Shown piece by piece: positions 24,112 through 40,070 of a DNA stretch of 64,000 bases (position 1 is the first letter of the stretch; each line of letters opens with the position of its first letter). The notes beneath the pieces were generated by a model, which did not search any database, was not told where the DNA came from, and saw only the letters and a program-made list of their open reading frames with translations. Made by a program: the position numbers and the translations under genes. The stretch is from a virus (lineage: Duplodnaviria; Caudoviricetes), in the IMG/VR virus record IMGVR_UViG_3300021964_010723. One strand, given 5' to 3'.

Positions 24112-24846
24112 TTATATAAAAAATTGTTGGTTTAATCTATATATGTTGTTGGTAAACATTTTGTCATATATGTATGCACTATGGAAAATATTTTGCTGAT
24201 ATAAAATCATACGGTTATATTTCATTTCAACTAAATGTATTTTTTTCCAATCTCCTTCATCTTCAATAACAAACTTTGTTGGTTTTATTGTTCCATGTAT
24301 ATCTAAAAAATTATGGTTAAATTCTGATATAATTTTATCATCTAAAGCATAAAAGGCAGTGCCACCAGCACATTCTTCTTCAGTGTTTAAATAAATTGTA
24401 GAAGCAAATGCTCTAAAATCAGGATTGTCTATATGTGGAACTCTAGGAGGTAAATTTTCAGACGTCATTACATTAACCATAAATGTAGCTCTTGTAAAAC
24501 TTGAAATTATTTGATCATTGCAGCCTGTTTTTTCAAATTCTGGGTTTACAACTTCTGGAAAAGTTTCTTTTATAATTTTATCATATACTGGCCCTAAAGA
24601 GTCTAACAAATAAAAAGCATTTATTCTACCACTATTTTTACCTGCAGGTAAATCTGAAGTTATTCTTTCATTACAAGTAGGAGGAATTAAAAGTGCTAAT
24701 TCTCTAACTAGGTCTGGATTTTTATAAAAATCATCTACAATAATTACTTTTACTTTGTCAAATTTTGTTTCTAAATTTACAATTTTAATGTTGAAATTAG
24801 GATTTGTTTGAAAAACTTCATGCTCGTTAATAAATTGTTTAATCAT
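24112..24846 (-). CDS. DUF6445-like putative 2OG-Fe(II) oxygenase
   Basis: IIVDDFY.NPD.VR..AL, PHID...FA..IYL, GGTAFY, MKYNRMILY....FHSA. Confidence 0.65.
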   Translation of the reverse strand: MIKQFINEHEVFQTNPNFNIKIVNLETKFDKVKVIIVDDFYKNPDLVRELALLIPPTCNERITSDLPAGKNSGRINAFYLLDSLGPVYDKIIKETFPEVVNPEFEKTGCNDQIISSFTRATFMVNVMTSENLPPRVPHIDNPDFRAFASTIYLNTEEECAGGTAFYALDDKIISEFNHNFLDIHGTIKPTKFVIEDEGDWKKIHLVEMKYNRMILYQQNIFHSAYIYDKMFTNNIYRLNQQFFI

Positions 24847-26641
24847 TTGTAATTTTAATTAAAAAATTATACTCTGGCAGATACAAATATTCTATAAGAC
24901 TATTTTTTAAAGTTTGTAACGCATCTTCTAATGTTTCTACTAATGGATCTCCTCCTAAATTAAAACTTGTGTTAAATAAAATTGGTACTCCAGATTCCTT
25001 GTAAAATTCTTTTAAAAGATTATAGAAATGCAAATTTTGTTCTTTTTTAACTGTTTGTATTCGACAAGTATTGTCTATATGAATAATACTAGGAATTTGC
25101 TCCAATTTATCTTTTTTGCAATTAACAGCATACATCATATGAGGACTTTGATCCATACCTTTTAAATCAAACCATTCATGAACATGTTCATGTAAAATTG
25201 ATCCTGCAAAAGGTCTAAAATATTCTCTATTTTTTACTTTGTTTACAAAATCTTTTCCGTCTGCAAAGGTAGGATCAAAAAGAATGCTTCTATTACCTAA
25301 TGCTCTTGGTCCGCTTTCAGATCTACCTTGAAAAATTGAAACTATATTTTTATTTTTTAAAAGATTTACTACGTCTTTATAAGAAGCGTTTTCAATAATT
25401 TCTGCATTGTTCTTTGTTGCCAAGTCTTTTATTTCGTCTATTGTATAATTATATTTTGGTCCTAAATACAAACTATCTGCATAAGTTCTAACATTTGTAT
25501 CACTTGTTAATCTATGATATACAAGTAAAGCTGCGCCAATACATGTTCCTGCATCGCTTGAAATAGGTTCTACATAAAAATTTATATTTTCATCTTGTAA
25601 AAAATCTAAATACCAATAGTTTGCAACACAATTTAATCCGTAACCTCCAGAAAAAACTACATTTGAAATTCTTGTATCTCTAACTGCTTTTTTAATAATT
25701 TCTAATGACTCTGCTTGACTTTCAGTTTGAACTGCATAGGCCATATCTCTTCTATTTTGTAGGAGAGTTACATCTAAATTATTTTCCCAAAACTCATCTG
25801 GTGTTTGTAATTCTTTATATCTACCAAAATTAACTTCAGCACCATTAGGGTAAGTAGGAATAATAACATTTCTATCTGTTGTTCGCCAATCTCCACCGTT
25901 TCCGTCTGTGTACAAAGGTGGTATTTTAGAATTAGAATTACCATAAGGAAAAAGCCCCATTGTTTTTCCAGCCTCAATAGGTGCCCAGCCACAATATTGA
26001 GTTACTGCTTCATACGCCTTTGTAATACCTGCTGTATCATCGATAATTAGTTCATGTGTTCCATCTTCACCAAATTGTTCTGATGTAAAATTTTCCATAC
26101 GACATCCGCCCCAAGGTCCTCTACCTCCTTGATGTTTGTACACTGTTTGTATATTATTTGGATATGAACATGTAAATATACTCTCTAATTCCCAAGTCAT
26201 TTCTGTTATATTATTCATTTGTAAAGGTATAAATGATCCTGCACCATCAATTATTACAGCAGTTGCAACATCAAAGCCACTTCTGTAAAATGCACAAGCA
26301 GCATGCAGTTTATGATGTATATGACTTAGATCTATTACTTGATGATGGTTAAACAGGTCAGCTTTTCTATCTATAAGTCCAAATTTTCTAGCCAACCCAG
26401 TATAAATATCATCTCCTGTAAAATCTACATGTCCTGAAGATTCTTGTAAAGGTTGGGTGTGCGCTATGACAAGATAATCAATTTTATCTGTATATTCTAA
26501 TATTTTTGCCATACATGCATATGGTCCTCCGTCATATTTGTGTCTACTTAATCTTTCTTCTTCAATAGAAAAAATTATTTCACCATTTTTAAGTAAACAA
26601 ACGGCTGCATTATGACCTCTTGTAATCGCTGCTATCCACAT
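24839..26641 (-). CDS. Carbamoyltransferase (NodU/CmcH family)
   Basis: H.A.VCLL..GEI....EEERLSR.K, HH..HA..AFY.S.F, DG.G, GK.MGL.PYG, SGG..LNCVAN, D.G..IGAA, GPRALG.RSIL, K.RE.FRPFA, P.L.NTSFN..G.PLVET. Confidence 0.95.
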   Translation of the reverse strand: MWIAAITRGHNAAVCLLKNGEIIFSIEEERLSRHKYDGGPYACMAKILEYTDKIDYLVIAHTQPLQESSGHVDFTGDDIYTGLARKFGLIDRKADLFNHHQVIDLSHIHHKLHAACAFYRSGFDVATAVIIDGAGSFIPLQMNNITEMTWELESIFTCSYPNNIQTVYKHQGGRGPWGGCRMENFTSEQFGEDGTHELIIDDTAGITKAYEAVTQYCGWAPIEAGKTMGLFPYGNSNSKIPPLYTDGNGGDWRTTDRNVIIPTYPNGAEVNFGRYKELQTPDEFWENNLDVTLLQNRRDMAYAVQTESQAESLEIIKKAVRDTRISNVVFSGGYGLNCVANYWYLDFLQDENINFYVEPISSDAGTCIGAALLVYHRLTSDTNVRTYADSLYLGPKYNYTIDEIKDLATKNNAEIIENASYKDVVNLLKNKNIVSIFQGRSESGPRALGNRSILFDPTFADGKDFVNKVKNREYFRPFAGSILHEHVHEWFDLKGMDQSPHMMYAVNCKKDKLEQIPSIIHIDNTCRIQTVKKEQNLHFYNLLKEFYKESGVPILFNTSFNLGGDPLVETLEDALQTLKNSLIEYLYLPEYNFLIKITND

Positions 26642-26650
26642 AATTCTCTT

Positions 26651-27688
26651 TTAGTTTTTAGGAGGAGTTAAAGAGCCGTTACTAATAGAAAACTTTTTTT
26701 GCTCTTCAATGTTGGGTTGAATAGGCATTGGTAAAACTTTATTTTTGTGAATTATTGATTTTCCTAACTTTTTTCTAACATCACTAATAACCTTATCTAA
26801 TAAAGTTGTATCCATTTCCATTAATTCATCATTTAATCTTTCTATGTGATCTTCTAATGAAATTCTTATTGGACTATATATTCTTTTATCTTTTCCTAGA
26901 TCAACAATATTGAATTTTTTAAAATTTGGATACGATATATTAATTGGAAAAGTAGATCCTAAAATAATTGTTCCATCTTTATTGAAACTTCTAGCTATGT
27001 GTTGCCCTACACTATCACATCCTATAAAATGATCGCACATATCGATAATACCTGCCCAGATTCTTAAGTCAGGAATTTGCGGCATAGCAACTGGATATTT
27101 GTTTACATCATTTTTATCAAGAGTAATAGGAAATTCAGACATTAAAATTACAGAATAATCTTTTTTAAGATTATTAATTATGTCAACAACATTATTAAGA
27201 TGCATACTTCGAGAACTTGGATCGATTACAAATTCATCATTATTTACGACTCCTCTGCCAAAGGGCTGAATTACAATAACCTGATCGAACCCAGTTTTTT
27301 CTCTAACTTCTTTAACAACTTTATAAGCTTCAGTTACTTCGTATTTGTTTAGAACTATTTTTGGAGGAGGAAGGTCTCTTATTCCTTGATTTGATATTGC
27401 AATATCAAATGCTTGAGATAGACTACATTTTTGATTATAATATTCCCAAATTCTATATGGTTCAGGAGATATAACATCTCTATGTATAATATGTTCTGCA
27501 AATAAACCTTTATGCCAGTTATCATATGCCTTTGAATGAAGTATAGGATGTCCTTTAAAAAAATCCATTCCGCCTTCACAAACTATGATAAAATCATCTG
27601 TTTTTTCTGCTAATTTTTCAAATGCAGGAATAGAAGTAATTACTCTACCTGCACCTCCATTTATAAAATATGCTTTTGATCTTTCCAT
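26651..27688 (-). CDS. Glycosyltransferase, GT9 (heptosyltransferase)-like fold
   Basis: GG.GRVITSIPA.EKL N-terminus, VIQPFG, A.II..CDHFIGCDSVGQHIA.SF......ILGST.P. Confidence 0.6.
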   Translation of the reverse strand: MERSKAYFINGGAGRVITSIPAFEKLAEKTDDFIIVCEGGMDFFKGHPILHSKAYDNWHKGLFAEHIIHRDVISPEPYRIWEYYNQKCSLSQAFDIAISNQGIRDLPPPKIVLNKYEVTEAYKVVKEVREKTGFDQVIVIQPFGRGVVNNDEFVIDPSSRSMHLNNVVDIINNLKKDYSVILMSEFPITLDKNDVNKYPVAMPQIPDLRIWAGIIDMCDHFIGCDSVGQHIARSFNKDGTIILGSTFPINISYPNFKKFNIVDLGKDKRIYSPIRISLEDHIERLNDELMEMDTTLLDKVISDVRKKLGKSIIHKNKVLPMPIQPNIEEQKKFSISNGSLTPPKN

Positions 27689-27706: not shown

Positions 27707-27714
27707 TATTTATA
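27707..27714 (-). promoter_or_regulatory. Canonical T4 late promoter TATAAATA ahead of the enzyme operon
   Basis: tatttata on + strand, 19 nt upstream of the ATG at 27688. Confidence 0.65.
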
Positions 27715-27733: not shown

Positions 27734-28447
27734 TTAATTTTTGGATTCACTAGGCTTGTCAGTTTTAGGCATTATTCCTGGATATGGAGGGAACATTTTT
27801 GCGGCTTGAAAAGCTGGAATATGTGCTAAAGCAGTGGGCAATTCTCTTAAAAGTCTTCTGAACGTTATCCACTGATTCTTGAGACTATCTGGCATATCTT
27901 CACTTATGGCACCGTCAGTTTCTTCTAACATTCTATTTCTTTGCTCTCTTATATCGTCCCAAGTTAAGTTTACTTCTCCTTCATTTTCCCAACCTTTTAC
28001 TGGTAAGATAAATTTTTGTTCCTCAAAATCATATCGTATTTCAAATTCATCATATATATCTCTAGGTTCATATTGATCTGAATAATAGACATGTGAATAT
28101 CCTTCTGGAGCTTCATGTAAAATTAGCCATTGTCTATTGGTTCTCCAAATGACATTGTCAGGATCGCCAATGTCATTTCCTATATAAGCAAGTAAGGCCA
28201 TTTCGTCATTTTCTGTAGCATCGACAGTAATCCTTACACAATCTACATCTACAGGTCTCTCTAAATCTCTTTCTTCATATAAACACCAACCTTTTTCTTT
28301 TCCTGTTTCTATATCAATTTCAAAAGTTAAAAAACGTGGTCCTTTGTATGTCCATGTTCCAGTTTTACCTAAAGAAAAATCAGTACTTCTCCACTCATTA
28401 GGTATAGGAAAAGTAAATTGTTGTTCTATTATTGGATTTTCTGCCAT
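27734..28447 (-). CDS. Tail fibre assembly chaperone-like protein
   Basis: C-terminal W..IRE.RNRML.ETD........W..FRR.LR.LP pattern of phage tail assembly chaperones. Confidence 0.65.
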   Translation of the reverse strand: MAENPIIEQQFTFPIPNEWRSTDFSLGKTGTWTYKGPRFLTFEIDIETGKEKGWCLYEERDLERPVDVDCVRITVDATENDEMALLAYIGNDIGDPDNVIWRTNRQWLILHEAPEGYSHVYYSDQYEPRDIYDEFEIRYDFEEQKFILPVKGWENEGEVNLTWDDIREQRNRMLEETDGAISEDMPDSLKNQWITFRRLLRELPTALAHIPAFQAAKMFPPYPGIMPKTDKPSESKN

Positions 28448-28462
28448 TTAATGTTTCTCCAT

Positions 28463-29305
28463 TTAAATATATGTAATCTTAACTATACCCGATCCGCCCA
28501 TGCCCATCCCGTTTGAACATTGTTTTGCCCAGTTATTACAATAATTGCTTGTTCCTGATCTTCCTCCGCCTGCTGGCCAATTTGTATAACACCCACAAGA
28601 ACACCAACTATCTGACGAACTTGTTCCTTGATGCATACCAATTATGGGTGGTGAACCAGTAAAAGTAGTTGTTCTATAGCAATGACATGCACCGTGTCCA
28701 AATTTATGCCCTACACTCCCCATCATACCAAAATCAGATCCAAAAAATCCACAAATATTACAGTTTGCACAGCCACTTGTATGATGTCTAGGACCCCATG
28801 CATCTCCATTACACATCCATCCTCCACAACCGCCTACTACACAGAAATTACTTAGATTATGTCCAGTTACATACGACCTACAGCCCATACTTGCGCTGCA
28901 GGTATGTGAATAATGACAAGGCCAACTGCCTCCTGCACATACAGTATACTGGCAGCCAGGTACTGTTGCTATTGTCTTTGTAGCATAGTTGCCTCCTGCA
29001 CCTCCAATGCTAAAACTACAGCAATTGCAACAGGTGTGTCCTGCTCCACCACCTCCACCTGACCAAATTTCAAAAGTTACTTGTGAAACATTTGCAGGAA
29101 CTGTCCATAAACAGCATTTTCCATTTGCTTGTTCACAGCAACCTACTTGGCAATTTCTGCAACAAAATCCTCTTGGATTGTAAATCCAATCAACTCCGTA
29201 TCCGTTACCTGCTCCAGTTGCTATATGATCACAAGTTACAATACTACAACAAGATGCATCTATATTTTGTTCAGTTATTCGTTTATAATTTGCATATGAC
29301 GCCAT
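28463..29305 (-). CDS. Cys/Gly-rich protein, paralogue 1 (putative polyglycine adhesin-like)
   Basis: 32 Cys in 280 aa; FEIWSGGGGGAG, GGAGG, GGCGG, AGGG and GGSGIVKITY motifs. Confidence 0.75.
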   Translation of the reverse strand: MASYANYKRITEQNIDASCCSIVTCDHIATGAGNGYGVDWIYNPRGFCCRNCQVGCCEQANGKCCLWTVPANVSQVTFEIWSGGGGGAGHTCCNCCSFSIGGAGGNYATKTIATVPGCQYTVCAGGSWPCHYSHTCSASMGCRSYVTGHNLSNFCVVGGCGGWMCNGDAWGPRHHTSGCANCNICGFFGSDFGMMGSVGHKFGHGACHCYRTTTFTGSPPIIGMHQGTSSSDSWCSCGCYTNWPAGGGRSGTSNYCNNWAKQCSNGMGMGGSGIVKITYI

Positions 29306-30788
29306 ATTTTTCTCTTAATTAAACGTAATTTTAACTATGCCGGATCCGCCCTGTCCTGTTCCACCAGCACAGCATTTAGCCCAGTTGCCACAATAAGATG
29401 ATTGGCCACTAGTTCCGCCGCCTGCTGGCCAATTTACATAGCAACCGCAAGAACACCATGTTTCTGTTGCACTATTGCCATGATGCAAGCCTATCATTGG
29501 AGCAGCACCAGTCCAACTACCATCAGCACCTGAACAATGACATCCCATATGCCCCATTTTCATACCAGTGCTTCCGCTTATTCCAAAATCAGCACCAAAT
29601 GAGCTGCAGATATTACAGTTAGCACATCCAGATCCCATTTCTCTACGCCCCCAAGCGTCACCATTACACATCCAACCACCGCAACCACCTGTGACACAGA
29701 AATTACTTAAATTATGCCCATTTACATATGATCTACAGCCCATACCTGCACCGCAGGTATGGCTTTTCCAACAAGGCCAACTGCCTCCTGCACAAATAGT
29801 GTACTGGCATCCAGGTGCTGTTGCTATTGTTTTAATTGCATAATTACCACCAGCACCTCCGACGCTAAAACTACAGCAATTGCAACAGGTGTGTCCTGCT
29901 CCGCCACCTCCACCTGACCAAATTTCAAAAGTTACACGACTTGTTTTAGCTGGAACAGTCCATAAACAGCATTTTCCATTTGCTTGCTCTACGCAGCTAC
30001 CAGCATCTGAACAATTTCTACAACAAAATCCCCTTGGATTGAAAATATAAAAAACTGTAGGTTTTGGTTTAGCGCCAGTAGCTATAGCGTTTGATGAAAT
30101 AATATTATCATTTAAATTTTCAGTTGCTATTTTTTTATAACTAGTATATGATGCCATTTTAGAACCTTTATTAATAATAACTTATTTTAACCATACCAGA
30201 ACCGCCTTGACCTGACCCACCAGCACAGCATTTTGCCCAGTTACCACAATAGCTAGATGTTCCAGATGCACCGCCTCCTGCTGGCCAATTTACATAGCAA
30301 CCGCAAGAACACCATGCTTCTGTTGTTGACACAGCTTGCATCATTCCCACGAAGGGTGCGGTTCCAGTAAAACTTGTAGTTCCGTTACAACGACACATAG
30401 TTTGGCCAACTCTAAAACCTACTGTTCCGTTTATTCCAAAATCAGCACCAAATGAGCTGCAGATATTACAGTTACCACAACCACTCCAATGATGTCGTGG
30501 TCCCCATGCGTCTCCATTACACATCCATCCACCGCAACCACCCATGACACAGAAATTACTTAGATTATGTCCAGTTACATACGACCTACAGCCCATACCT
30601 GCACCGCAGGTATGGCTTTTACTACAAGGCCAACTGCCTCCTGCACATACAGTATACTGGCATCCAGGTACTGTTGCTATCGTTTTAATTGCATAATTAC
30701 CACCGGCACCTCCAATGCTAAAACTACAGCAATTGCAACAGGTGTGTCCTGCTCCGCCACCTCCACCTGACCAAATTTCAAAAGTTAC
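29009..30788. repeat. 72-bp block repeated three times (29009-29080, 29864-29935, 30717-30788)
   Basis: gctaaaactacagcaattgcaacaggtgtgtcctgctcc(a/g)ccacctccacctgaccaaatttcaaaagttac; a single mismatch in copy 1. Confidence 0.9.
29315..30157 (-). CDS. Cys/Gly-rich protein, paralogue 2
   Basis: Same motif order and length (280 aa). Confidence 0.75.
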   Translation of the reverse strand: MASYTSYKKIATENLNDNIISSNAIATGAKPKPTVFYIFNPRGFCCRNCSDAGSCVEQANGKCCLWTVPAKTSRVTFEIWSGGGGGAGHTCCNCCSFSVGGAGGNYAIKTIATAPGCQYTICAGGSWPCWKSHTCGAGMGCRSYVNGHNLSNFCVTGGCGGWMCNGDAWGRREMGSGCANCNICSSFGADFGISGSTGMKMGHMGCHCSGADGSWTGAAPMIGLHHGNSATETWCSCGCYVNWPAGGGTSGQSSYCGNWAKCCAGGTGQGGSGIVKITFN

Positions 30789-31010
30789 ACATGAGGTATA
30801 TGCTGGTACAGTCCATAAACAGCATCTGCCATTTGCTTGTTCAGTGCATCCGCCAGCATTTGCACAATTCTGACAAGCTAAACCGCGGTTATTATATACC
30901 CATAAAATATTTGATTGTTTACCTGCACCTAATTCTAGTTTTTCTGTAGTTACAGAATCATTTAAGAATTGATCACTTGCAATTTTTTTATAACTACCGT
31001 AATTTGCCAT
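30171..31010 (-). CDS. Cys/Gly-rich protein, paralogue 3
   Basis: Same motif order (279 aa). Confidence 0.75.
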   Translation of the reverse strand: MANYGSYKKIASDQFLNDSVTTEKLELGAGKQSNILWVYNNRGLACQNCANAGGCTEQANGRCCLWTVPAYTSCVTFEIWSGGGGGAGHTCCNCCSFSIGGAGGNYAIKTIATVPGCQYTVCAGGSWPCSKSHTCGAGMGCRSYVTGHNLSNFCVMGGCGGWMCNGDAWGPRHHWSGCGNCNICSSFGADFGINGTVGFRVGQTMCRCNGTTSFTGTAPFVGMMQAVSTTEAWCSCGCYVNWPAGGGASGTSSYCGNWAKCCAGGSGQGGSGMVKISYY

Positions 31011-31021
31011 AATTTATTCCA

Positions 31022-31648
31022 TTATACAGTGATAATTCTCCAACCGTAAGTATCATTACTATAAACAATGTCAAATGCTGCATTTACAGTATTTACTTGC
31101 ATGTCTTCATTATCTCCCATTATAACTTCTCCGTTACGTACTAAAACTAAAGGATTAGTATCAAAAGTACCAGCAAGATCAAAAAATCTTATAGTGTCTC
31201 CCATTGTAGGATCTAACGGAAGCGTTGCTGCAATAAATCCTGCTGATGTATCTACAAAATATGCTTGCCAAGATTCTGCAGTAAATCCACCTACCTTAAC
31301 AGAATAAAGGTATTTAACGCTTTCCCATCTTAAATTTGCAGAACCATCAGTAACTATTGCTTGCGTGTCTGTACCATCTTCCGGCGGTAAAATATATGTT
31401 GTATTTTGTGCAGTCTCACTTGGTTGGAATGCTGTAAAACCGCCACTTGTTGCATTAAATTTTAATGGCAAATTATCATTGATATTAAATTCAGCTACTG
31501 ATGACACAGTCCCTGCCGCATCGCCTACTACTAATCCAAGTGAGGTAAACTCAATTTTAGCTGGAGAATCTGGAACGCTCATTATCCTTTGCGACATATG
31601 AACTAGTGAGTCGTTAATAGGATATTTTCCAACTGTAATTCTTCTCAT
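31022..31648 (-). CDS. Putative virion structural protein
   Basis: Y.LP..DG...Q...TDGS.NL.W, plus a C-terminal YFVDTS.G.I..TLP..P..GD.I.F.D..G.F.TN.L...RNG..I.G domain typical of phage fibre/baseplate proteins. Confidence 0.6.
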   Translation of the reverse strand: MRRITVGKYPINDSLVHMSQRIMSVPDSPAKIEFTSLGLVVGDAAGTVSSVAEFNINDNLPLKFNATSGGFTAFQPSETAQNTTYILPPEDGTDTQAIVTDGSANLRWESVKYLYSVKVGGFTAESWQAYFVDTSAGFIAATLPLDPTMGDTIRFFDLAGTFDTNPLVLVRNGEVIMGDNEDMQVNTVNAAFDIVYSNDTYGWRIITV

Positions 31649-31660
31649 TAATCTTCCTTT

Positions 31661-31981
31661 TTATAGCGTTGTTGTCTCTATTCCATAAACAATAGCTGTA
31701 ACATTTGCTGCATCTGCTCTAACAATAATTTGTTTGTCTGCATTAACTACAATTCCTGTTCTTTCTATGCTACCTGATGGTAATAATTCTACATTAAATT
31801 CTAAGTATTCAGCAGTCGTAGGACTTGCTGTATCTGAAATTGCAATGTTACAAAACACACTTGCAGATCCTCTATTACATAAGTTTACAGTTATAACTGA
31901 AAATGTTGTTTCTGGAACAACATATAATGATGTGTCTACACCTGCAGTTAACTCTGCGTTTCCTAAAATTCCTGTTGCCAT
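31661..31981 (-). CDS. Small beta-sandwich virion protein (family member 1)
   Basis: 106 aa; pattern shared with 45941..46261 and 57544..57927. Confidence 0.55.
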   Translation of the reverse strand: MATGILGNAELTAGVDTSLYVVPETTFSVITVNLCNRGSASVFCNIAISDTASPTTAEYLEFNVELLPSGSIERTGIVVNADKQIIVRADAANVTAIVYGIETTTL

Positions 31982-31997
31982 TAATATTTCTCCAATG

Positions 31998-32005
31998 TAT
32001 TTATC
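31998..32005 (-). promoter_or_regulatory. Late promoter-like box GATAAATA
   Basis: tatttatc overlapping the stop of the 2689-aa gene. Confidence 0.5.
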
Positions 32006-35000
32006 TTAAAAAGTAATTGAGTGCTAGTGGTATACCTGTTACACCTCCAAGGAAGTTTGCAGTTGCGTTAAATTGTATACTTGCACCAGTTACTGTTGAA
32101 ATTAAATTTGTACTTATAAATATGTCACCTGCAGTTAACGAGTTAACATTAAGTGAAGCACCACCGCCACCAATTTGAGCTTCAATATAAGCTTTTATTG
32201 CTCTTTGCGTTGGTATCACTGAATCACTATCTGCAGTCATAAACGGATCTGTTGAAAATTCGCTTACTGTCGCAGAACTTCCGCCAAGAGTCACTTCACC
32301 TAAACTTAATTCTTGTAATCCTGCAATATTAAATGCGTCTGCATTTAGAGTAGCAATACCTGTTGATTGTTCTACGTTAAATAGATTACCTACCCTAAAG
32401 TTTCCATCTTGATCAGTGGCAGTAAAAAATACTCTACCGCCAGCAGATTCAACAGTTTCGTATGGTTGGTATGGATCTTGGAACGGCACTCCTGGATAAT
32501 TTGTAGATTTAAAATTACCAGTTCCTATATCTAAGAAATCGTGTCCTGTTAGACGTACTTGTGAATATCTTATTCTCATATTCAAAGCAGTTTTATCCGG
32601 AGGAACATTAATGCTAGGCATCTCTGGTGATAAATTTAAGAATCCAGTATAACCTCCATCATTTGCTCCTAAGAATGTAACAACATTTACTAATTTAAAC
32701 ACATCATTTGGTAAATGATCAAAAACTACGTTTGAACCTGCAACTGGTACATCGGACATTCTTCTAACAGCAACAAAAATTCCACTTTGATCAAATTCTG
32801 CATATCCATTTGATTCAGTTGCGCTGATATTTCCACTAGCTGCTTCATACCCTATACCTCTGTTTGTAAATGTTGGATTAGCTAAAACTCCGCTACCTGT
32901 TTTAACGGTATAAGTTACGTCATAGATATTGTTAGGATCTGTTAATGTTAGAGTAGGTACGCTTGTGTATCCACTTCCAGGTTCTACTATTCTTATTTCG
33001 AATATTTTTTCATTTGCAATACTAGGGCGAGCAAATGCTTGCATGCCTAATGTCATCCTAACTACATGAGTCTGTACATCTGATCCTTTTAATATCCAAA
33101 CTGGCTCTAAATCTGGATTACCAAAACCTAATGCATTGTATCCATTATTGCCTGCTTGTGCAACAACTGAACGTAATTCCCAATTTGCACAATCTATAGA
33201 AGTTCTAATATTTTCACCTTGCAAGTTATCTATTACAACAAATTGTCCTTGTGCATATTTTATGTCTTTAGAAACTCCTAAGGTAGAACCATCTGCTGGT
33301 AAATCTACGAGCGTCCAACTTTCTCCTCTATCTAATGAATAAATTACATCATTTTGATCTTGCGACACAACTGCAAATCTATTTGCTCCAAATGTAATAG
33401 CACTCCAATTCCTTACAATTGGCGTTAATAATTCATCTGTAAGTAAGACTTTTGTCCATAAAGATGGATTTTGATATTCTGCATATGCAATTGTATTACT
33501 ATCGTCTAAAGCGACTACTAGGCGATTTGCTCCAAATGTGATTCCTACCCAACCGATCTGATCAGGCAAAGCGTCAGCATATTGGGTCCAAGTATTACCT
33601 TCGTCGTCTGAGACTAAAACATCTCTTGATCCTTTAAACATTAAGTAAAACTTGCCTTGACCGTATGTAATGTATGGTTCGCTATCGTAAGCATTTGGTA
33701 AAGCTACAGCACCCCAATTAACATTATCATATGATTGAAAAACTTGATTTTGAGATGTACTTTGGGTTACAATAATCGTAGAACTTACTGCAATATCGCT
33801 AGATCCGTCATATAATATCGCATTAGCAATTTTTGCCGGTCCTGATTGTCCACTTCCTCCAATGGATAAATTTGTCCATGTTGTACCGTCTGTGCTTTTT
33901 TCTATGCTTGTGCTTGTGTCACCAACTGCTATAAAGTCTCCGCTGCAACCAAACCCTTCTTGATCAAATTCTAAAATTGCACCAGTAGTGCTATCACATG
34001 CAGAAGCAATTATTTCTAAATCATTTAGTGGTGTCATTCCGCCTAATTGATCTCCAGGAATGGTTATGCTATCGCCTGTTTTATAATTTGCACCACCATT
34101 AGTTACTGCGACTATATACTTACTACCTACCCTGTTAACTGTAAAAGTGGCTCCTGTTCCTATATCTGAAACAACTAATCCTAGGGTTGGGTTTACATAT
34201 TCTATGCTAGTGTAACACCATGTAATGTCTGTTGTATCCTGCGATGCGCTCAATGTAGTTGCAGTCGTAGTAAACGGAGGTGCTGAAATTGTTATTTTAG
34301 GTTCAATCTGATATACCGAACTTGCATTAGGTGCTGTAATAGGTGTACCTGGATTTAGATGTTCCCAACCAGGTGTTGTTTCATCATTTTTAACCACAGT
34401 TGCAGTTTTGCTGCCTGAGCTGTATGTATCAATTATAGCATATTGGCCTACACCTGTTCCTCCAGTAATAAATATTCTCATTTGTTTGCCGGAATATGCT
34501 GTATCAGGATTACCGTCTGTCGCTGCTAGCGTTAAACTTGTTAATGTTCCAGTTTGAGCGGTATTTGAAACAATTAAGTAACCACTACCGCCAAATTGTT
34601 CTTCGTCACCTGTTAAATCAGTAATCTCTACCCTATTGACAGCCCTGTCTCTAAATTCATCTGTATACGTAGATGCATTTATGCCTGCACCAAAAACATT
34701 TATCACAGCTTCTGTATAAGCTTCTCCTGCATGTGAAAATTCTACATTAATTATTTCGTCGCCAGTTACATTGACATTAGAAATGTCAGCATTAAATTGA
34801 AATCTATTGTCAACTACAGCAGTTACGGGTGTTTCATCAGGGTCTACACCTTCTGCAACAGATCCAAACTTGCCATAACTGTTGTTACCATTAGTAGCTC
34901 TAATTCTGCCACCGTTTTCTGCCAAGTATCCTATGTGTGAATAATATGTAAACACAGATACAAGCTCTGCCCTACCATTATTTGTTATCCAAGCTCCAAT

Positions 35001-38000
35001 ACCATCACTAATTACCTGGGTAAAATCGTTTGAAACGATTGAATCATTACCGCCGTTATGTAATGCACCATCTATCTTTTGTCCTATTGCAGCATGTCCA
35101 AATGTTGTTAAATTTTGCACATACGGTGATCTAGTTGTTATCCATACAGATTCATCATCTGGTCCCCAACCTGGGTCTAAAGATGCATAAGCTCCTGCTG
35201 TTGGTCTCTGTGTTCCTAATAAATTTCCAGCATCAAGATCTCCGTCTAATCCGTCTACAGTCTGTAAGCGTAATCCGGTTGCATTCCTTAGATAGTACAT
35301 GTCTTCTTCTTTAGAACCTAACACACTGTTGACATAATATCTTGCACTTAATTTAGATTTGTAATATGCAGGTAAATTAAATGTAAAATCGTACTGTCGT
35401 AAAACACTGTTTGTAGCAAATCTTCTCTCCCATTGTTGCGGATATACTAAATCCCATCTCATGCCATGGATAATACTTTTTAAATCTCTTGTACAAAGTG
35501 TTCTATTGTATTCGTAAGCAGTTCGGATCGCTAAATTTAAACCTGTGTAATCATTATCAAATTGTACAAGAGTATTACTGGCATCAACAAGCCTAATTTT
35601 AGTTGCGCTTACAATTCTACCAATAGTATATGTATCAGCAAAATTAAAGGTAAATGTTTCTGGAAACACAAATGCATCAGCGTTTGTTATAATAACTTCC
35701 ATTCCTACTTCTAACCATTGTGTAGTAGCTAGTGTCATTGTGTTATCAGCTGCGGTTATGCCAGTAATTACATCTGAATGATAATTATCAACTTTGTTTA
35801 AAACGTCTGCAACAATAAATTCTTTGTTCAAATCTAATATTCTGCTATTTGCATGCAAATCTTTTTCAGCAGTCTGTTGATTATTTCCTTCTGGATTTAC
35901 ACCATAAATTATATCGTTAACAAAATCTATGGTGTAATCTATCTTATCTTTGGCTGCTTGTTCAGACACTGCATTTTTTGCTAAAATTCTAACATATTCA
36001 TTTGCTGCAATGGTAGCTTCTTTTTGGTAACCGTATACTTTAGCAGAAGGTCCTCTTGCATAACTATAAGCTGCAACTATTGAAGCAAAATTTGTATCTA
36101 AACACCAATCATACCTAGCAGCATCTAATATTAGACCTATGTCTCTTGAACATTTTTCATGATCAAAATCAAATCCACTATATACCGATGTAATTTGCTG
36201 GAGTGCCCAGTTTATTGTATATGTTTTTGCTGCATTAATTGCATTTACGGCTGTTGAAATATCACTACTAAACCAATTATTGTCTGGCTGTATTGCTGCT
36301 GGTACTGTAGTTGGGTCATTGGCTGTTATAGAATCAGTAATTATAGCTCTTAATTCATCAATTTTATTATCTTCTGTTGCACCTGCATTTGGTCCGGTGT
36401 AAGGTTGTGATCCACCGCCTAGTGTATTTTGAAAAGCTTGCTTTACATTCGTTGCTAAACTTGTATACAATTGCACACTTGCTGCTCGTTCTGCTGATGT
36501 ACCATATACTGATTCACCAGTTATATTGTTATACAATGCTCTAACAACATTTAGCGTCGCAATGTTACATCCATCTCCGTTAACTGTTTGATCATAATTT
36601 ATATCAAATGCCCAAGATTCTAGTGTTCTTGCTAAATCTTGTTTACATTTTGTTTGTAACTCTGTGCTTAATTGTTGCCAATAAGAATTTGCATTTGCAG
36701 TAAAATCTACAATATAATCTCGATTATTTATAATTTGATTTCTTGCGCTTTCTCTTGTAACAATTCCTCCAGGAATGTTATGGTAAGATACAGCAGGAGC
36801 ACTTGCATCACCATCATTAAATATAGTAGTTAAGTTATTTTGGCTACTATTAATTCGTTGGATTGCTGATGTTGAGTCTGCGTTATTTTGGTTAAAATAT
36901 TCTGTTATTATTTCACTAGCAACAACTCCTACACCATACAATTCCTGTTGGGATTGTTCTTGCTTTACAACACTAGATTGTGCTCTATTGTAGGCATACC
37001 CAGTGTAAATCCCCCAAAAATTTGTTTTTAGTGTTGAGTCTAAAACAAATGCTTCATGTATGTATCCTAAATCTCTTCTACAATATTCACCTCTATATGT
37101 AAAATTTCCAAATTTACTAATAATAAAATCAATAGTATATTCTTGAATATAGGTATAATTATTTGCTAAATTTGTATAATCAGATATTAAGCCGGCTTGT
37201 GCAGTACTAATATCTGGATAGGTTATAGCGGGTAAATTATTTACGTCAGTAACAATAGTAATCAAAATATTCATCAATGTGAAAATTGTATTACTTACAG
37301 TGCCATTGGCTGAGTTTGTAGTAATGATTTGTGATATTTCAGTTTGATACGGATTTATAATTGTATTGTTTATCGCTACATTTTGTAATACTGATTGTAA
37401 ATAGCCGTAAGCATCTAAAGTAGCAGTTATCTCGGTATTATTAATTTGCAATATACCTGTTACTCCAGAATAATATGCTAGGGCTGCATTAATTGTTTGC
37501 CAATTACCTCCATAGACTAAATCATAACAAATTGCATCTATTACGTAACCAACATCTTGTTGACACTTTGTTCTACTATAAGATAATGTCTCATATTGGT
37601 CATCTAGAAAACCTTGAATTTCTCTTTTAATGAAATCTCTATTTAAGAAAATATTTTCTTTTGCGTATCCATAAACAGGTTCTGCTAGAGCATATGAAGC
37701 AGTAAAATCTGCTTCAGTTTTTCTTCCAATACCGTGATCAATAAATCTTTTAATTACCCTTGCTAGTTGTGTAGTTGCTAAAGCTGTAGAAGGACTACCT
37801 ATTGGCCAATCTGTTAGTTGAGCTTCGTTATTTCCTAATTCTGCATTGACTGTGATTCCTTGGCTAATATCTTCTAAAATATTTTCTAGATGATCTAAAG
37901 CTGCATAGGTGTACTTTATATCAGTCGTTGGTGTCAATCCATTCTCAACTTTCCTTGGATACACAGTAACTGACCTTAATTCGTCTCCCATAACACAACA

Positions 38001-40070
38001 TTGAGCTGGAACAATTATAGGTAAAACTTCATAATATTTTCCAGTTGCTACCTTAATCAATGTATTAGTTTCTATCCTAGTTGGAATTCCTGTTTCATCT
38101 CCTGCTGCGATAGCAGTTGTAATTATATTTGTTAATTCTGTTATTCGAGCGTATACTTGTTCTACGTCTAAGTTTATGTTTTTATATTGTTGTACAACTG
38201 CTGTAGAATTATCTCCATTGAAAACTTGCCAACTATTTGTTCCTGATGTTCCTATTTCTAAAGGATCGGTTTGATTAACAACATTTTCCATTAATGCTAG
38301 CGCAAAATTAATACTTGCATTTGTTTCAGCAGCTTGATTTAAAAGATAAAAATTTGTTGCGTCATTAACATAACTTAATGCAACTTCTCTTACTCTTACA
38401 TTTCCTCCATGTGTTAAATCATGAATAATTGCATCTACGATAAAACCAATATCTCTTTCGCATTTTTCTCTATTATAATTGAAATTCACCGTAAAAGGTG
38501 AATTACCTTGTGTAATTTGATAATCTGTCCATTCTACAGTTTCTCTTTGTATGTAGATTCTATTTAGGTCTAATATCTGTCTTGCAGCAGGATATTTTGC
38601 ACCGTCTAGAATTTGTTCAGCAGCATATCTTATACTTGCCCAAGGAGATTCTATTGTTGTTCCTCTAATAGGCGCAGGTTGATCAACACCTGTAGTTGAC
38701 ACATAGTAAACATCTGGATTTTGTCCAAAGAATGTCCATTCGGGTGTAGCGTCTGCAGATACTCTTAGAACTTGTCCTTCTTTACCTATCGGTAATCTTG
38801 TAGGTCCTGCTCCACCGTAATATACTAGATCCCCCAATTGCTCTAAAGCATCTGTTTCTGAACCTATTGCAAGTACATTCCAGTATCTACCAGTTATGTC
38901 TAAATCTGGTCTACTATTTTCTGCTCCTCCTCCTGGAGGTGTTTTTGTTTCTGTTGAAAAATCATCATCATCACTTACGTGAGATTCTATACACACATAT
39001 GACGATTTATCATATCTAACAACATCACCTACAACATAATATCCATCATCTACCCATTGTCCTCTCCAGCGTAGACCTGTTGACATTAAGTCCCAATAGT
39101 CCTCCCAACCTGTAACTTCCCCAGGTTCAATAGCACTGTTATCAGCAGTAGCAACATAAACAGAACTTCCTACAGTTACAACATTTCCAGTTCTATATTC
39201 TTGAGCACTGTCTAATGCACCCCATTCTCCACTAAATGCAAAACCTTTTGCAAAAACTTTCCATGTTATAGCAGAGCTTGTTGGCTGTGTATTAATATTT
39301 TGAATAAGAGCTATATATTGATAACCGCCCCAAACCACAATATCGCCTGCTTGATATGTAGTTGTTGAATCCCACTCGTCTTCGAAGCTTACTCCTTCTA
39401 CAAATGTGTCCCATTTAAAATTATCGCTTCCAAATTCAGTAACTGATGTATGATATTCATTACATAGATATAATCCAGCTCCGTATTTTACTACATCATT
39501 GACTTTGTATCTAGTAGACGGCGTCCATAATCCTTTCCAGTCTATACCTGAAGTAAATCTATCCCATTTTGATAGATCATTTTCTAAACCAGAAGCATTA
39601 CTTGCTGCAGATAAATGTTCAGTGTTACATACCCAAGTCCCGCTACCATATTTTACAATTTCATTTGGTCTGTATGTGGTATTGATATCCCAATCACCTT
39701 TCCACTCTAATCCTGTAGCAAATACATCCCAATTTTCTATTTCGTCACCTAAATTTTGTTGTAAGTCGCTAGTAGATGTATGTACTATTTTACAAATGTA
39801 CAAACCAGCACCAAATTTAACTATATCGTTGTAAACATAATAAGTAGAATTTTGCCATTCACCTTTCCAGGTTTGTCCGTCAGCCATCAGTTGCCACTTT
39901 GCAGGAGCACTGTCTAAATCGTCATAAAATGACGGTAAACTTGTGTGTCCTAAAACACAAATATATAATCTACCTCCAATTTGAACAACATCATCTCTAT
40001 AATAAGTTGTGCCAGTAGTCCATGTATTTTTCCATACAAACCTAATTCTACCAAGTTTAAACTCTGCCAT
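32001..40070 (-). CDS. Giant virion structural protein (2689 aa): CBM5/12-like repeats, helical C-x-(R/Q)-D repeats, beta-helix and propeller regions
   Basis: N-terminal W....Y...D.V..G...Y.C repeats; SPYVQN.TTFG...NDFTQVISDGIG beta-helix-like segment; C-terminus paralogous to 40108..45549. Confidence 0.7.
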   Translation of the reverse strand: MAEFKLGRIRFVWKNTWTTGTTYYRDDVVQIGGRLYICVLGHTSLPSFYDDLDSAPAKWQLMADGQTWKGEWQNSTYYVYNDIVKFGAGLYICKIVHTSTSDLQQNLGDEIENWDVFATGLEWKGDWDINTTYRPNEIVKYGSGTWVCNTEHLSAASNASGLENDLSKWDRFTSGIDWKGLWTPSTRYKVNDVVKYGAGLYLCNEYHTSVTEFGSDNFKWDTFVEGVSFEDEWDSTTTYQAGDIVVWGGYQYIALIQNINTQPTSSAITWKVFAKGFAFSGEWGALDSAQEYRTGNVVTVGSSVYVATADNSAIEPGEVTGWEDYWDLMSTGLRWRGQWVDDGYYVVGDVVRYDKSSYVCIESHVSDDDDFSTETKTPPGGGAENSRPDLDITGRYWNVLAIGSETDALEQLGDLVYYGGAGPTRLPIGKEGQVLRVSADATPEWTFFGQNPDVYYVSTTGVDQPAPIRGTTIESPWASIRYAAEQILDGAKYPAARQILDLNRIYIQRETVEWTDYQITQGNSPFTVNFNYNREKCERDIGFIVDAIIHDLTHGGNVRVREVALSYVNDATNFYLLNQAAETNASINFALALMENVVNQTDPLEIGTSGTNSWQVFNGDNSTAVVQQYKNINLDVEQVYARITELTNIITTAIAAGDETGIPTRIETNTLIKVATGKYYEVLPIIVPAQCCVMGDELRSVTVYPRKVENGLTPTTDIKYTYAALDHLENILEDISQGITVNAELGNNEAQLTDWPIGSPSTALATTQLARVIKRFIDHGIGRKTEADFTASYALAEPVYGYAKENIFLNRDFIKREIQGFLDDQYETLSYSRTKCQQDVGYVIDAICYDLVYGGNWQTINAALAYYSGVTGILQINNTEITATLDAYGYLQSVLQNVAINNTIINPYQTEISQIITTNSANGTVSNTIFTLMNILITIVTDVNNLPAITYPDISTAQAGLISDYTNLANNYTYIQEYTIDFIISKFGNFTYRGEYCRRDLGYIHEAFVLDSTLKTNFWGIYTGYAYNRAQSSVVKQEQSQQELYGVGVVASEIITEYFNQNNADSTSAIQRINSSQNNLTTIFNDGDASAPAVSYHNIPGGIVTRESARNQIINNRDYIVDFTANANSYWQQLSTELQTKCKQDLARTLESWAFDINYDQTVNGDGCNIATLNVVRALYNNITGESVYGTSAERAASVQLYTSLATNVKQAFQNTLGGGSQPYTGPNAGATEDNKIDELRAIITDSITANDPTTVPAAIQPDNNWFSSDISTAVNAINAAKTYTINWALQQITSVYSGFDFDHEKCSRDIGLILDAARYDWCLDTNFASIVAAYSYARGPSAKVYGYQKEATIAANEYVRILAKNAVSEQAAKDKIDYTIDFVNDIIYGVNPEGNNQQTAEKDLHANSRILDLNKEFIVADVLNKVDNYHSDVITGITAADNTMTLATTQWLEVGMEVIITNADAFVFPETFTFNFADTYTIGRIVSATKIRLVDASNTLVQFDNDYTGLNLAIRTAYEYNRTLCTRDLKSIIHGMRWDLVYPQQWERRFATNSVLRQYDFTFNLPAYYKSKLSARYYVNSVLGSKEEDMYYLRNATGLRLQTVDGLDGDLDAGNLLGTQRPTAGAYASLDPGWGPDDESVWITTRSPYVQNLTTFGHAAIGQKIDGALHNGGNDSIVSNDFTQVISDGIGAWITNNGRAELVSVFTYYSHIGYLAENGGRIRATNGNNSYGKFGSVAEGVDPDETPVTAVVDNRFQFNADISNVNVTGDEIINVEFSHAGEAYTEAVINVFGAGINASTYTDEFRDRAVNRVEITDLTGDEEQFGGSGYLIVSNTAQTGTLTSLTLAATDGNPDTAYSGKQMRIFITGGTGVGQYAIIDTYSSGSKTATVVKNDETTPGWEHLNPGTPITAPNASSVYQIEPKITISAPPFTTTATTLSASQDTTDITWCYTSIEYVNPTLGLVVSDIGTGATFTVNRVGSKYIVAVTNGGANYKTGDSITIPGDQLGGMTPLNDLEIIASACDSTTGAILEFDQEGFGCSGDFIAVGDTSTSIEKSTDGTTWTNLSIGGSGQSGPAKIANAILYDGSSDIAVSSTIIVTQSTSQNQVFQSYDNVNWGAVALPNAYDSEPYITYGQGKFYLMFKGSRDVLVSDDEGNTWTQYADALPDQIGWVGITFGANRLVVALDDSNTIAYAEYQNPSLWTKVLLTDELLTPIVRNWSAITFGANRFAVVSQDQNDVIYSLDRGESWTLVDLPADGSTLGVSKDIKYAQGQFVVIDNLQGENIRTSIDCANWELRSVVAQAGNNGYNALGFGNPDLEPVWILKGSDVQTHVVRMTLGMQAFARPSIANEKIFEIRIVEPGSGYTSVPTLTLTDPNNIYDVTYTVKTGSGVLANPTFTNRGIGYEAASGNISATESNGYAEFDQSGIFVAVRRMSDVPVAGSNVVFDHLPNDVFKLVNVVTFLGANDGGYTGFLNLSPEMPSINVPPDKTALNMRIRYSQVRLTGHDFLDIGTGNFKSTNYPGVPFQDPYQPYETVESAGGRVFFTATDQDGNFRVGNLFNVEQSTGIATLNADAFNIAGLQELSLGEVTLGGSSATVSEFSTDPFMTADSDSVIPTQRAIKAYIEAQIGGGGASLNVNSLTAGDIFISTNLISTVTGASIQFNATANFLGGVTGIPLALNYFLR

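What the first reader, a model, noticed from the sequence alone, without database searches (positions are those of the whole stretch)
27734..31010. Tandem triplet of ~280-aa proteins with ~30 Cys and polyglycine motifs, plus a tail-fibre chaperone
Seen: about 11% Cys (CC pairs, CxC, CxxC), His and Trp interspersed with GGGGG/GGAGG/GGCGG/AGGG motifs and a terminal GGSG.VKI.(Y/F). Established: T-even gp38 adhesins are similar in size and use conserved glycine-rich motifs (polyglycine-II sandwich) separated by hypervariable loops. Inference: three alternative receptor-binding tips stabilised by metal-thiolate clusters (Zn or Fe-S) or dense disulfides. So much Cys is unusual for a protein assembled in the cytoplasm.
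Basis: partly seen in the sequence, partly recalled or inferred. Interest (0 to 1): 0.8.

Follow-up and report, generated by a model that had tools for sequence, protein, structure and literature searches.

The report
Cysteine-rich glycine-lattice tail-fibre tips, in triplicate
Three neighbouring genes of a marine T4-like cyanophage encode unusually cysteine-rich versions of a known phage fibre-tip fold (a TNF-like plus glycine-rich domain, as in cyanophage Pam3 gp24), followed by their likely assembly chaperone. They are probably three distinct host-binding tips, and what the roughly 30 cysteines do is still unknown.

Summary
Three tandem minus-strand genes encode proteins of 279, 280 and 280 aa with 29, 29 and 32 Cys (10.4-11.4%, against a window median of 0.7%) and about 18% Gly. 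A 237-aa gene follows.

The gp38 analogy is right in spirit but names the wrong family. An AlphaFold2 model (pLDDT 78) matches the cyanophage Pam3 fibre gp24 (Z 19.6), a Bxb1 tail-tip protein (Z 12) and the ALK/LTK TG domain (Z 8-9). The next match is at Z 3, and gp38 is not listed. Pfam Gly_rich_2 is hit.

The 237-aa protein ends in a Phage_tail_APC-type helical domain, which parallels the Pam3 gp24-gp25 gene pair.

In 63 distinct related loci the module is giant fibre, two small proteins, three Cys-rich copies with one or two chaperones, then a putative heptosyltransferase and a carbamoyltransferase. A few loci, and P-SSM2, have two copies.

The three positions are old, distinct types defined by their variable segments (aa 11-45 and 193-233). 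The cores are homogenised within each genome.

About 24 Cys are near-invariant. Disulfide versus metal could not be tested, and no virion proteomics covers this family.

First readers of this scan noted the same family in other genomes.

Verdict: a new Cys-rich variant of a known fibre-tip kind.

The parts
30171..31010 (-). TG paralogue A (position 1), 279 aa, 29 Cys. It has a short N-terminal segment followed by a TNF-like plus glycine/cysteine-rich domain.
   Evidence: ORF. Composition. phrog_4205 at E 1.6e-34. Its closest orthologue in the variable segments is L010 position 1.
29315..30157 (-). TG paralogue B (position 2), 280 aa, 29 Cys. This is the copy that was modelled.
   Evidence: AF2 model m2406a785b9d1 has pLDDT 77.9 and pTM 0.78. 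Residues 32-280 align to Pam3 gp24 residues 77-275 with Z 19.6, rmsd 2.5 A and 193 aligned residues.
28463..29305 (-). TG paralogue C (position 3), 280 aa, 32 Cys. It has three extra Cys in the N-terminal segment (C19, C20, C25).
   Evidence: Pfam Gly_rich_2 (PF21722) at E 1.9e-6, 28.5 bits against a cutoff of 24.3. Alignment A1.
27734..28447 (-). Tail-fibre assembly chaperone-like protein D, 237 aa, 2 Cys. It has an N-terminal alpha/beta domain with no recognised fold and a C-terminal helical Phage_tail_APC-type domain (about residues 157-227).
   Evidence: PF16778 at E 3.6e-5, which is below the gathering score. phrog_4912 'tail fiber assembly' at 2.4e-6. A profile of 46 homologues hits 2kz6 at E 2.2e-7. 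The model has pLDDT 92.6. 2kz6 aligns with Z 5.1 over residues 157-224. Homologues follow the TG genes in nearly all related loci.
31022..31648 (-). 208-aa protein E, a likely fibre-end adaptor. Its C-terminal ~95 residues are the C-terminus of the single 1477-aa fibre protein of S-SSM7 and Sf-FS3.
   Evidence: blastp: E residues 115-208 match residues 1384-1477 at 50% identity, E 4e-26. PHROG hits fall on the N-terminal ~75-175 of long tail or tailspike proteins, and there is a sub-threshold T4_gp9_10_N hit. The gene is conserved just upstream of the TG genes.
31661..31981 (-). 106-aa protein F, a small conserved fibre-module protein.
   Evidence: phrog_11338 'tail fiber protein' at 1.4e-11. 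It is conserved between the giant fibre gene and E in related loci.
32001..40070 (-). Giant fibre-like protein H (2689 aa) with N-terminal CBM5/12-type repeats. It heads the operon that ends with the TG genes and the chaperone.
   Evidence: PF02839 at 2.1e-25. It is homologous to the 'phage tail fiber-like protein' of S-SSM7. Synteny holds in 60+ loci.
27707..27714 (-). T4-type late-promoter box TATAAATA between D and the next gene. It marks the downstream boundary of the fibre operon.
   Evidence: Exact match on the minus strand. The motif count in the window is not above chance, so its position is suggestive only.

Best explanation
A, B and C are virion tail-fibre tip (receptor-binding) proteins of a T4-like cyanophage.

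Fold (shown): each protein is a short N-terminal attachment segment followed by a TNF-like beta-sandwich. The inter-strand loops of the sandwich run out into a glycine-rich lattice. This is the fold of the trimeric Pam3 fibre gp24.

Cysteines (partly shown, partly inferred): in this subfamily about 30 positions carry Cys. Many of them are Gly, Ala or Ser in a non-Cys-rich relative. I infer that the thiols staple the lattice and its distal cap. The likeliest means is disulfides that form on or after release into oxic seawater. A subset may bind metal.

Three types (shown): the three genes are three old, non-redundant types. They are distinguished by position-specific segments at aa 11-45 (inferred to be the docking segment) and aa 171-176 plus 193-233 (inferred to be receptor-contacting loops). 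The scaffold between these segments is kept alike within each genome by gene conversion.

Assembly (inferred): the proteins are made late from the fibre operon. They are folded with the help of the downstream TFA-like chaperone D, which would leave before maturation as Pam3 gp25 does. [quoted passage not shown] This would give the phage three different binding heads.
For: Fold:
- Matches are Z 19.6 to Pam3 gp24, Z 12 to the Bxb1 tail tip and Z 8-9.4 to ALK/LTK TG. The next match drops to Z 3.2.
- Foldseek gives E 5.8e-6 to 7ypx_A.
- 188 BFVD viral models match at E<=0.001. They include annotated tail-fibre, minor-tail and baseplate proteins and Cys-rich relatives in S-CAM3 and P-SSM2.

Sequence family: Pfam Gly_rich_2 is hit by C and by 33 of 70 homologues.

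Published Pam3 data: gp24 is a virion protein and a trimer. Its next gene, gp25, is a TFA-like chaperone that is absent from virions (PMC9608196).

Chaperone.

Operon context: the order giant fibre, F, E, TG copies, chaperone is conserved in 63 distinct loci and in S-SSM7, Sf-FS3, S-CAM1 and P-SSM2. E is fused to the fibre C-terminus in S-SSM7.

Position-specific types:
- In the variable segments, same-position proteins from different phages are 55-58% identical. Different positions are 36-39% identical.
- In the core, paralogues within one phage are 78% identical, as alike as orthologues at 79%.
- On a tree of the variable columns the position label needs 4 changes. On a tree of the core columns it needs 14.
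- At DNA level the core is 80-100% identical, with a 74-nt perfect run.

Cysteines:
- 24 near-invariant columns.
- Cys columns align with Gly, Ala or Ser in RemZ.
- C206 and C256 are lost together, 118/0/0/4.

Trimer hint: the P-SSM2 relatives are about 75 residues longer at the N-terminus. I read this extension as probably helical by eye only. A 356-aa homologue shows only a weak hit there. If helical, it would echo the trimerising helices of Pam3 gp24.
Against: - No virion proteomics covers this family. The T4 gene clusters concerned are unique to S-SSM7 and P-SSM2, which were not analysed.
- The oligomeric state was not tested.
- The window proteins lack the ~75-residue helical bundle that trimerises and docks Pam3 gp24.
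- Two of the three copies miss the Pfam threshold.
- Cys number shows no preference for even values (69 even against 53 odd), so not every Cys can be in a disulfide.
- Which end of the molecule carries the variable loops was not verified on coordinates.
Confidence: 0.72

Rival explanations
1. The three paralogues form one obligate 1:1:1 heterotrimer. This would be a pseudo-threefold tip with three non-equivalent faces, rather than three separate homotrimeric tips.
For: Exactly three copies occur in 63 distinct loci spanning groups only 30-40% identical. The three have nearly equal lengths. The N-terminal and loop segments are position-specific and conserved across phages. A single chaperone serves all three in this clade. 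The cores are kept alike within a genome, which would preserve a common trimer interface.
Against: Complete loci with two copies exist, each copy followed by its own chaperone (L055, L065, L076; P-SSM2 has TG-chaperone-TG). In 22 loci a chaperone gene separates copy 1 from copies 2 and 3, which suggests separate assembly units. The solved relative, Pam3 gp24, is a homotrimer (PMC9608196). No binding test was possible.
Confidence: 0.15
2. The cysteines are mainly metal ligands (Zn-Cys4 or Cys3His sites, or an Fe-S cluster). In this reading the fibre tip is a metalloprotein and possibly a redox- or metal-sensing trigger.
For: Motifs of ligand type are present: C46-x2-C49...C55, C178-x2-C181-x2-C184, C206-H-C208 and C235-x-C237-x-C239. 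Two groups of four or five Cys columns are gained and lost together, namely {95, 208, 237, 256} and {46, 49, 55, 159, 181}. C206 is replaced by His in 4 sequences. Odd Cys counts are common. Folding happens in a reducing cytoplasm where metal sites can form and disulfides cannot. From my own knowledge, T4 gp37 and gp12 bind Fe and Zn.
Against: The covarying groups coincide with clades, so the correlation is confounded by descent. Lost Cys are mostly replaced by Ser, Thr, Asn, Ala or Gly, not by His or Asp. At about 10% Cys with 9-10 Trp the composition is unlike metallothionein. The CxxCxxC run lacks the ferredoxin-type fourth Cys-Pro. Nothing was measured.
Confidence: 0.3
3. The proteins are not virion parts. 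They would be intracellular or released proteins acting with the neighbouring sugar- and tailoring-enzyme genes, for example as modified substrates or surface-remodelling factors.
For: They always lie next to a putative GT9-like transferase and a carbamoyltransferase. No proteomic evidence places them in particles.
Against: The fold and its solved relatives are all fibre or tail-tip proteins or extracellular binding domains. The genes sit inside the fibre operon, upstream of a separate late-promoter box. A TFA-type chaperone follows them. The transferase and carbamoyltransferase belong to gene clusters found in more than one cyanophage, unlike the TG clusters.
Confidence: 0.06

Closest known systems
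Pam3 gp24 tail fibre with its chaperone gp25 (PDB 7YPX, 7YFW; PMC9608196, PMC9942802)
   Same: Both have the TNF-like beta-sandwich plus glycine-rich lattice (Z 19.6, rmsd 2.5 A, 193 residues, about 20% identity). Both are about 280 aa. In both, the next gene is a TFA-like chaperone with an N-terminal beta-containing domain and a C-terminal helical domain. Both come from cyanophages, and Pam3 virions contain disulfides.
   Different: In Pam3 the glycine-rich domain is 39% Gly and the paper mentions no Cys in it. Here there is about 18% Gly and 10-11% Cys. Pam3 gp24 has a ~75-residue N-terminal helical bundle that docks on the baseplate wedge. Here there are only ~30 N-terminal residues, and the genes follow a giant fibre gene. 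Pam3 has one fibre gene and this phage has three. The chaperone's N-terminal domain is larger here (about 155 aa against 55).
T-even / S16 gp38 adhesin (PDB 6F45)
   Same: Both have conserved glycine-rich motifs forming a stacked lattice, separated by variable segments. Both are encoded at the end of the fibre gene block. In both, the conserved motifs could serve as recombination sites between variable segments. The Pam3 authors report local similarity between the lattices (2.7 A over 52 C-alpha).
   Different: There is no sequence match to Pfam GP38, and 6F45 is not among the fold matches. gp38 has a beta-helix middle domain rather than a TNF-like sandwich, a three-layer lattice, is a monomer on the gp37 trimer, and is not Cys-rich.
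ALK/LTK TG (TNF-like + glycine-rich) ligand-binding domain (PDB 7LIR, 7NX3, 7LS0)
   Same: The same two-part fold (Z 8-9.4 over about 145-150 residues).
   Different: ALK/LTK are animal receptor ectodomains that bind a cytokine. Identity is about 17-20%. There is no relation in function or context.
Mycobacteriophage Bxb1 tail-tip proteins (PDB 9D93 chains Q and P) and Pfam Gly_rich_2 (PF21722) proteins of many phages and giant viruses
   Same: The same domain at the end of tail or fibre proteins (Z about 12; 188 BFVD matches).
   Different: The Bxb1 protein comes from a siphovirus tail tip rather than a T4-like long-fibre module. I did not check the Cys content of these relatives. The one non-Cys-rich relative that I aligned is RemZ.

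Membership tests
Pfam Gly_rich_2 / TG-domain fibre proteins (Pam3 gp24-like) | Sequence match to PF21722 above the gathering score | tested here: met
   Paralogue C scores 28.5 bits against a cutoff of 24.3. A and B are not reported at E<=1. 33 of 70 aligned homologues match, with a best E of 3.7e-15.
Pfam Gly_rich_2 / TG-domain fibre proteins (Pam3 gp24-like) | TNF-like beta-sandwich whose loops form a glycine-rich lattice | tested here: met
   The AF2 model aligns to 7ypx_A with Z 19.6, rmsd 2.5 A and 193 residues, and the next unrelated fold is at Z 3.2. The lattice geometry itself was not inspected because no coordinates were available.
Pfam Gly_rich_2 / TG-domain fibre proteins (Pam3 gp24-like) | Adjacent TFA-type assembly chaperone | tested here: met
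   D gives PF16778 at E 3.6e-5 (below the cutoff) and phrog_4912. A profile of 46 homologues hits 2kz6 at E 2.2e-7. The gene is syntenic in nearly all loci. Physical binding is not shown.
Pfam Gly_rich_2 / TG-domain fibre proteins (Pam3 gp24-like) | Homotrimer present in the virion | not testable with these tools
   No proteomics exists for S-SSM7 or P-SSM2. The oligomeric state was not computed.
T-even gp38 adhesin | Sequence membership (Pfam GP38 family) | tested here: not met
   No such hit for any of the three proteins at E<=1.
T-even gp38 adhesin | gp38 fold: N-terminal attachment domain, beta-helix and three-layer polyglycine-II sandwich | tested here: inconclusive
   6F45 does not appear in the Foldseek, VIA-wide or VIA second-look lists. 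Absence from a list does not exclude local lattice similarity, which the Pam3 authors report for gp24.
Metallothionein-type metal-thiolate cluster protein | Very high Cys content (about 20-30%) with few or no aromatic residues and no regular fold without metal | tested here: not met
   Cys is 10-11%, there are 9-10 Trp per protein, and a beta-sandwich is confidently predicted.
Ferredoxin-type 4Fe-4S site | CxxCxxCxxxCP motif | tested here: not met
   Only C178-x2-C181-x2-C184 is present and no Cys-Pro follows. C181 is Cys in only 44% of the wider family.

The most novel reading that the evidence does not exclude
The Cys-for-Gly replacement turns the polyglycine lattice into a redox- or metal-dependent structure. 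It would be soluble and chaperone-held with free or metal-bound thiols in the reducing cyanobacterial cytoplasm. It would then lock by a ladder of disulfides, or by bound Zn or Fe, once the virion meets oxic seawater. In addition, the three position-specific paralogues would assemble into one heterotrimeric tip that presents three different receptor faces. Together this would be a new design for phage adhesins, and a possible trace-metal or thiol pool carried by abundant ocean viruses.
Probability: 0.12. Interest if true: 0.85.

Novelty: new variant of a known kind. Interest (0 to 1): 0.55.

Why it matters
These proteins are the likely host-recognition heads of a large, mostly uncultured group of T4-like marine cyanophages. 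The group gives 185 clusters at 50% identity, and single 90% clusters hold up to 758 metagenomic sequences. Cultured members include P-SSM2, S-SSM7 and S-CAM1, where the genes have been labelled 'hypothetical' since 2005-2010.

Assigning them to the Pam3 gp24 fold gives a concrete handle on host range in Prochlorococcus and Synechococcus phages.

Two features go beyond the known family and are directly testable:
- About 30 conserved cysteines are built into a lattice that elsewhere consists of glycine.
- A three-gene set has position-specific variable segments that are conserved across phages, while the scaffolds undergo concerted evolution.

If the thiols bind metal or act as a redox lock, that would bear on virion stability in seawater and on trace-metal budgets.

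Tried and rejected
- Binding of B to D: complex prediction gave no verdict (score 0.00, both chains poorly folded without alignments). This counts neither for nor against binding.
- Fold of chaperone D: Foldseek found nothing at E<=0.001. VIA-wide gave only helical-bundle matches of Z 5-5.6 for residues 157-227. The N-terminal domain therefore has no recognised fold from these searches. It was not folded alone.
- Nucleotide search: megablast of the region against 50,697 phage records found nothing.
- Direct sequence search of the PDB with B found nothing at E<=10. A family profile found only RemZ.
- Own genome: none is held for this window.
- A single ancient triplication with clean orthology on whole-length trees is rejected. 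The position label needs 25 changes. This is explained by core homogenisation.
- 'One chaperone per core type': in TG-D-TG-TG-D loci, copies 2 and 3 are barely more alike (42%) than copy 1 is to either (39%). The idea is not supported.
- Virion proteomics: the published S-SM1, Syn9 and S-PM2 data do not include this family.
- The Bxb1 structure paper is not held.
- Cys-Cys distances could not be read, because model coordinates are not exposed to the Python box.
Full report
**What is there.** The minus strand carries a tight run of genes with gaps of 9-15 nt. The order is a 2689-aa fibre-like protein (32001-40070), a 106-aa protein (31661-31981) and a 208-aa protein (31022-31648). Three paralogues follow: A (30171-31010), B (29315-30157) and C (28463-29305). 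A 237-aa protein D closes the run (27734-28447). A, B and C are 279, 280 and 280 aa and about 70% identical to each other. They contain 29, 29 and 32 Cys (10.4-11.4%) and about 18% Gly. No other ORF of 150 aa or more in the window exceeds 2.7% Cys, and the median is 0.7%.

**Is it real and conserved?** A word-indexed search found 308 relatives. An exhaustive search found 185 clusters at 50% identity, and the full-length ones listed have 4-12.5% Cys, nearly all 6% or more. In 122 close homologues, 24 Cys columns are at least 91% Cys. Across the wider family (effective number about 217), eleven Cys are at least 85% conserved: positions 64, 91, 92, 122, 129, 154, 164, 178, 206, 235 and 263 of B.

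**Fold.** An AlphaFold2 model of B built on a 70-sequence alignment has pLDDT 77.9 and pTM 0.78.
- An exhaustive structural comparison gives the cyanophage Pam3 fibre gp24 at Z 19.6 (rmsd 2.5 A, 193 residues).
- A Bxb1 tail-tip protein follows at Z about 12, and ALK/LTK TG domains at Z 8-9.4.
- The next match is at Z 3.2-3.8. Foldseek agrees.
- Pfam Gly_rich_2 is hit by C above threshold and by 33 of 70 homologues.
- 188 viral models in BFVD match at E<=0.001. Many are annotated as tail fibre, minor tail or baseplate proteins. The list includes proteins of S-CAM3 and P-SSM2.
- gp38 (6F45) appears in none of these lists and Pfam GP38 is not hit.
- According to PMC9608196, Pam3 gp24 is a virion-borne trimer. 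Its TNF-like strands extend into a four-layer lattice of twelve glycine-rich motifs with a variable distal tip. The authors note local likeness to the gp38 lattice.

**The chaperone.**
- D has a sub-threshold Phage_tail_APC hit and PHROG 'tail fiber assembly' hits in its C-terminal third.
- A profile of 46 homologues hits the PF16778 representative 2kz6 at E 2.2e-7.
- The model is confident (pLDDT 92.6), with an N-terminal alpha/beta domain and a C-terminal helical domain. This two-part plan parallels Pam3 gp25.
- Only the helical part finds any match, and a weak one (Z 5.1).
- The binding prediction gave no verdict.

**Context in other phages.**
- I fetched 79 viral-contig loci and annotated regions of four isolates. 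They share one module: giant fibre, F, E, Cys-rich TG genes with chaperone(s), a 345-aa protein with weak likeness to LPS heptosyltransferases, then a carbamoyltransferase.
- In S-SSM7 and Sf-FS3 the C-terminal ~95 residues of E form the very C-terminus of the 1477-aa fibre protein. This places E at the fibre's distal end, directly before the TG genes.
- E also resembles the N-terminal adaptor region of long tailspikes and, below threshold, T4 gp9/gp10. I infer that F and E are the mount for the TG proteins.
- A TATAAATA box lies between D and the 345-aa gene. This suggests the fibre operon ends with D.

**Copy number and evolution.**
- Of the distinct loci with full context, 63 have three TG genes. 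Of these, 38 are TG-TG-TG-D, 20 are TG-D-TG-TG-D, and 5 lack a detected final chaperone.
- Three loci are TG-D-TG-D, and P-SSM2 is TG-D-TG.
- On whole-length trees the gene positions are mixed: the position label needs 25 changes, and the window's copies are nearest to each other.
- Splitting the alignment explains this. In the variable segments (aa 11-45, 171-176 and 193-233), same-position proteins of different phages are 55-58% identical. Different positions are 36-39% identical.
- In the core, paralogues of one phage (78%) are as alike as orthologues (79%).
- A tree of the variable columns needs only 4 changes of the position label. A tree of the core columns needs 14.
- At DNA level the core is 80-100% identical among the window's copies, with a 74-nt perfect run, while the flanks are 40-60% identical.
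- The three positions are therefore old, distinct types, and gene conversion homogenises their scaffolds. This argues for three non-redundant roles.
- The two-copy loci and the interleaved chaperones favour separate assembly units (three kinds of tip) over one obligate heterotrimer. The heterotrimer is not excluded.

**The cysteines.**
- In the alignment with the non-Cys-rich relative RemZ, Cys columns correspond to Gly, Ala or Ser. Cys has thus been written into lattice and sandwich positions that need small residues.
- Runs such as CxC and CxCxC in extended chain would put the thiols on one face (inference).
- C206 and C256 are lost together.
- Two larger groups of Cys columns covary, but they track clades.
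- Cys counts are odd as often as even, so some thiols are free or bound to metal.
- Replacements are mostly small polar residues rather than His or Asp.
- Pam3 virions contain disulfides mapped by mass spectrometry (PMC9942802). Cytoplasmic assembly therefore does not rule disulfides out.
- I could not read model coordinates, so disulfide against metal remains open. My estimate is that disulfide stapling is more likely than metal for most sites, and that at least a subset has about a 30% chance of being metal sites.

**Host and novelty.**
- The nearest isolates for the flanking genes are Synechococcus and Prochlorococcus T4-like phages.
- Their TG genes are equally Cys-rich: P-SSM2 has 36 Cys in each of two genes, S-CAM1 has 25-36, and S-SSM7 has 28-30. 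All are annotated as hypothetical.
- No virion proteome covers them.
- First readers of this scan flagged the same family in other genomes, without follow-up.
- The fold and the fibre-plus-chaperone logic are known. The Cys-rich lattice and the conserved three-type set with concerted cores are new variants.

Noticed in passing
26651-27688 (-) and 24839-26641 (-); L082 and L083 downstream genes: The 345-aa protein right after the chaperone has weak likeness to LPS heptosyltransferases (TIGR02201, E 0.0014). It is always followed by a carbamoyltransferase, and S-CAM1 and P-SSM2 add ADP-heptose pathway genes. The constant adjacency to the Ser- and Cys-rich tips raises the untested idea that the fibre tips, rather than host LPS, are heptosylated. 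Bacterial autotransporter heptosyltransferases treat adhesins this way.
   Followed up: partly
28463-31010: Concerted evolution: core nucleotides 181-480 of the three genes are 80-100% identical, with a 74-nt perfect run between A and B. The flanks are only 40-60% identical. The conserved glycine/cysteine motifs may act as recombination sites.
   Followed up: yes
29305-29230 (N-terminus of paralogue C): Only paralogue C has Cys in its N-terminal segment (C19, C20, C25). In Pam3, an N-terminal Cys28 of gp24 anchors the fibre to the baseplate wedge by disulfides.
   Followed up: no
32001-40070 (-) and 40108-45549 (-): Two giant fibre-like proteins (2689 and 1813 aa) start with CBM5/12-type repeats (PF02839, E 2e-25 and 2e-35) and share C-terminal regions.
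   Followed up: partly
Loci L047-L080 (for example L051 6899-10819): In more distant clades the module reads TG, chaperone, TG, TG, chaperone, with two chaperone paralogues. The second is often about 320 aa. P-SSM2 and three contigs have only two TG genes.
   Followed up: partly
PDB 8gl8_D (RemZ), residues 4-199: The family profile matches the N-terminal glycine-rich region of RemZ, a protein in PDB entry 8GL8 (E 5e-4). The domain may therefore also occur on a bacterial protein. RemZ's own biology was not looked up.
   Followed up: no
8496-11888 (-): The tail sheath protein is 1130 aa, far longer than T4 gp18. tblastn covers only about 60% of it in two pieces, which suggests large inserted domains.
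   Followed up: no
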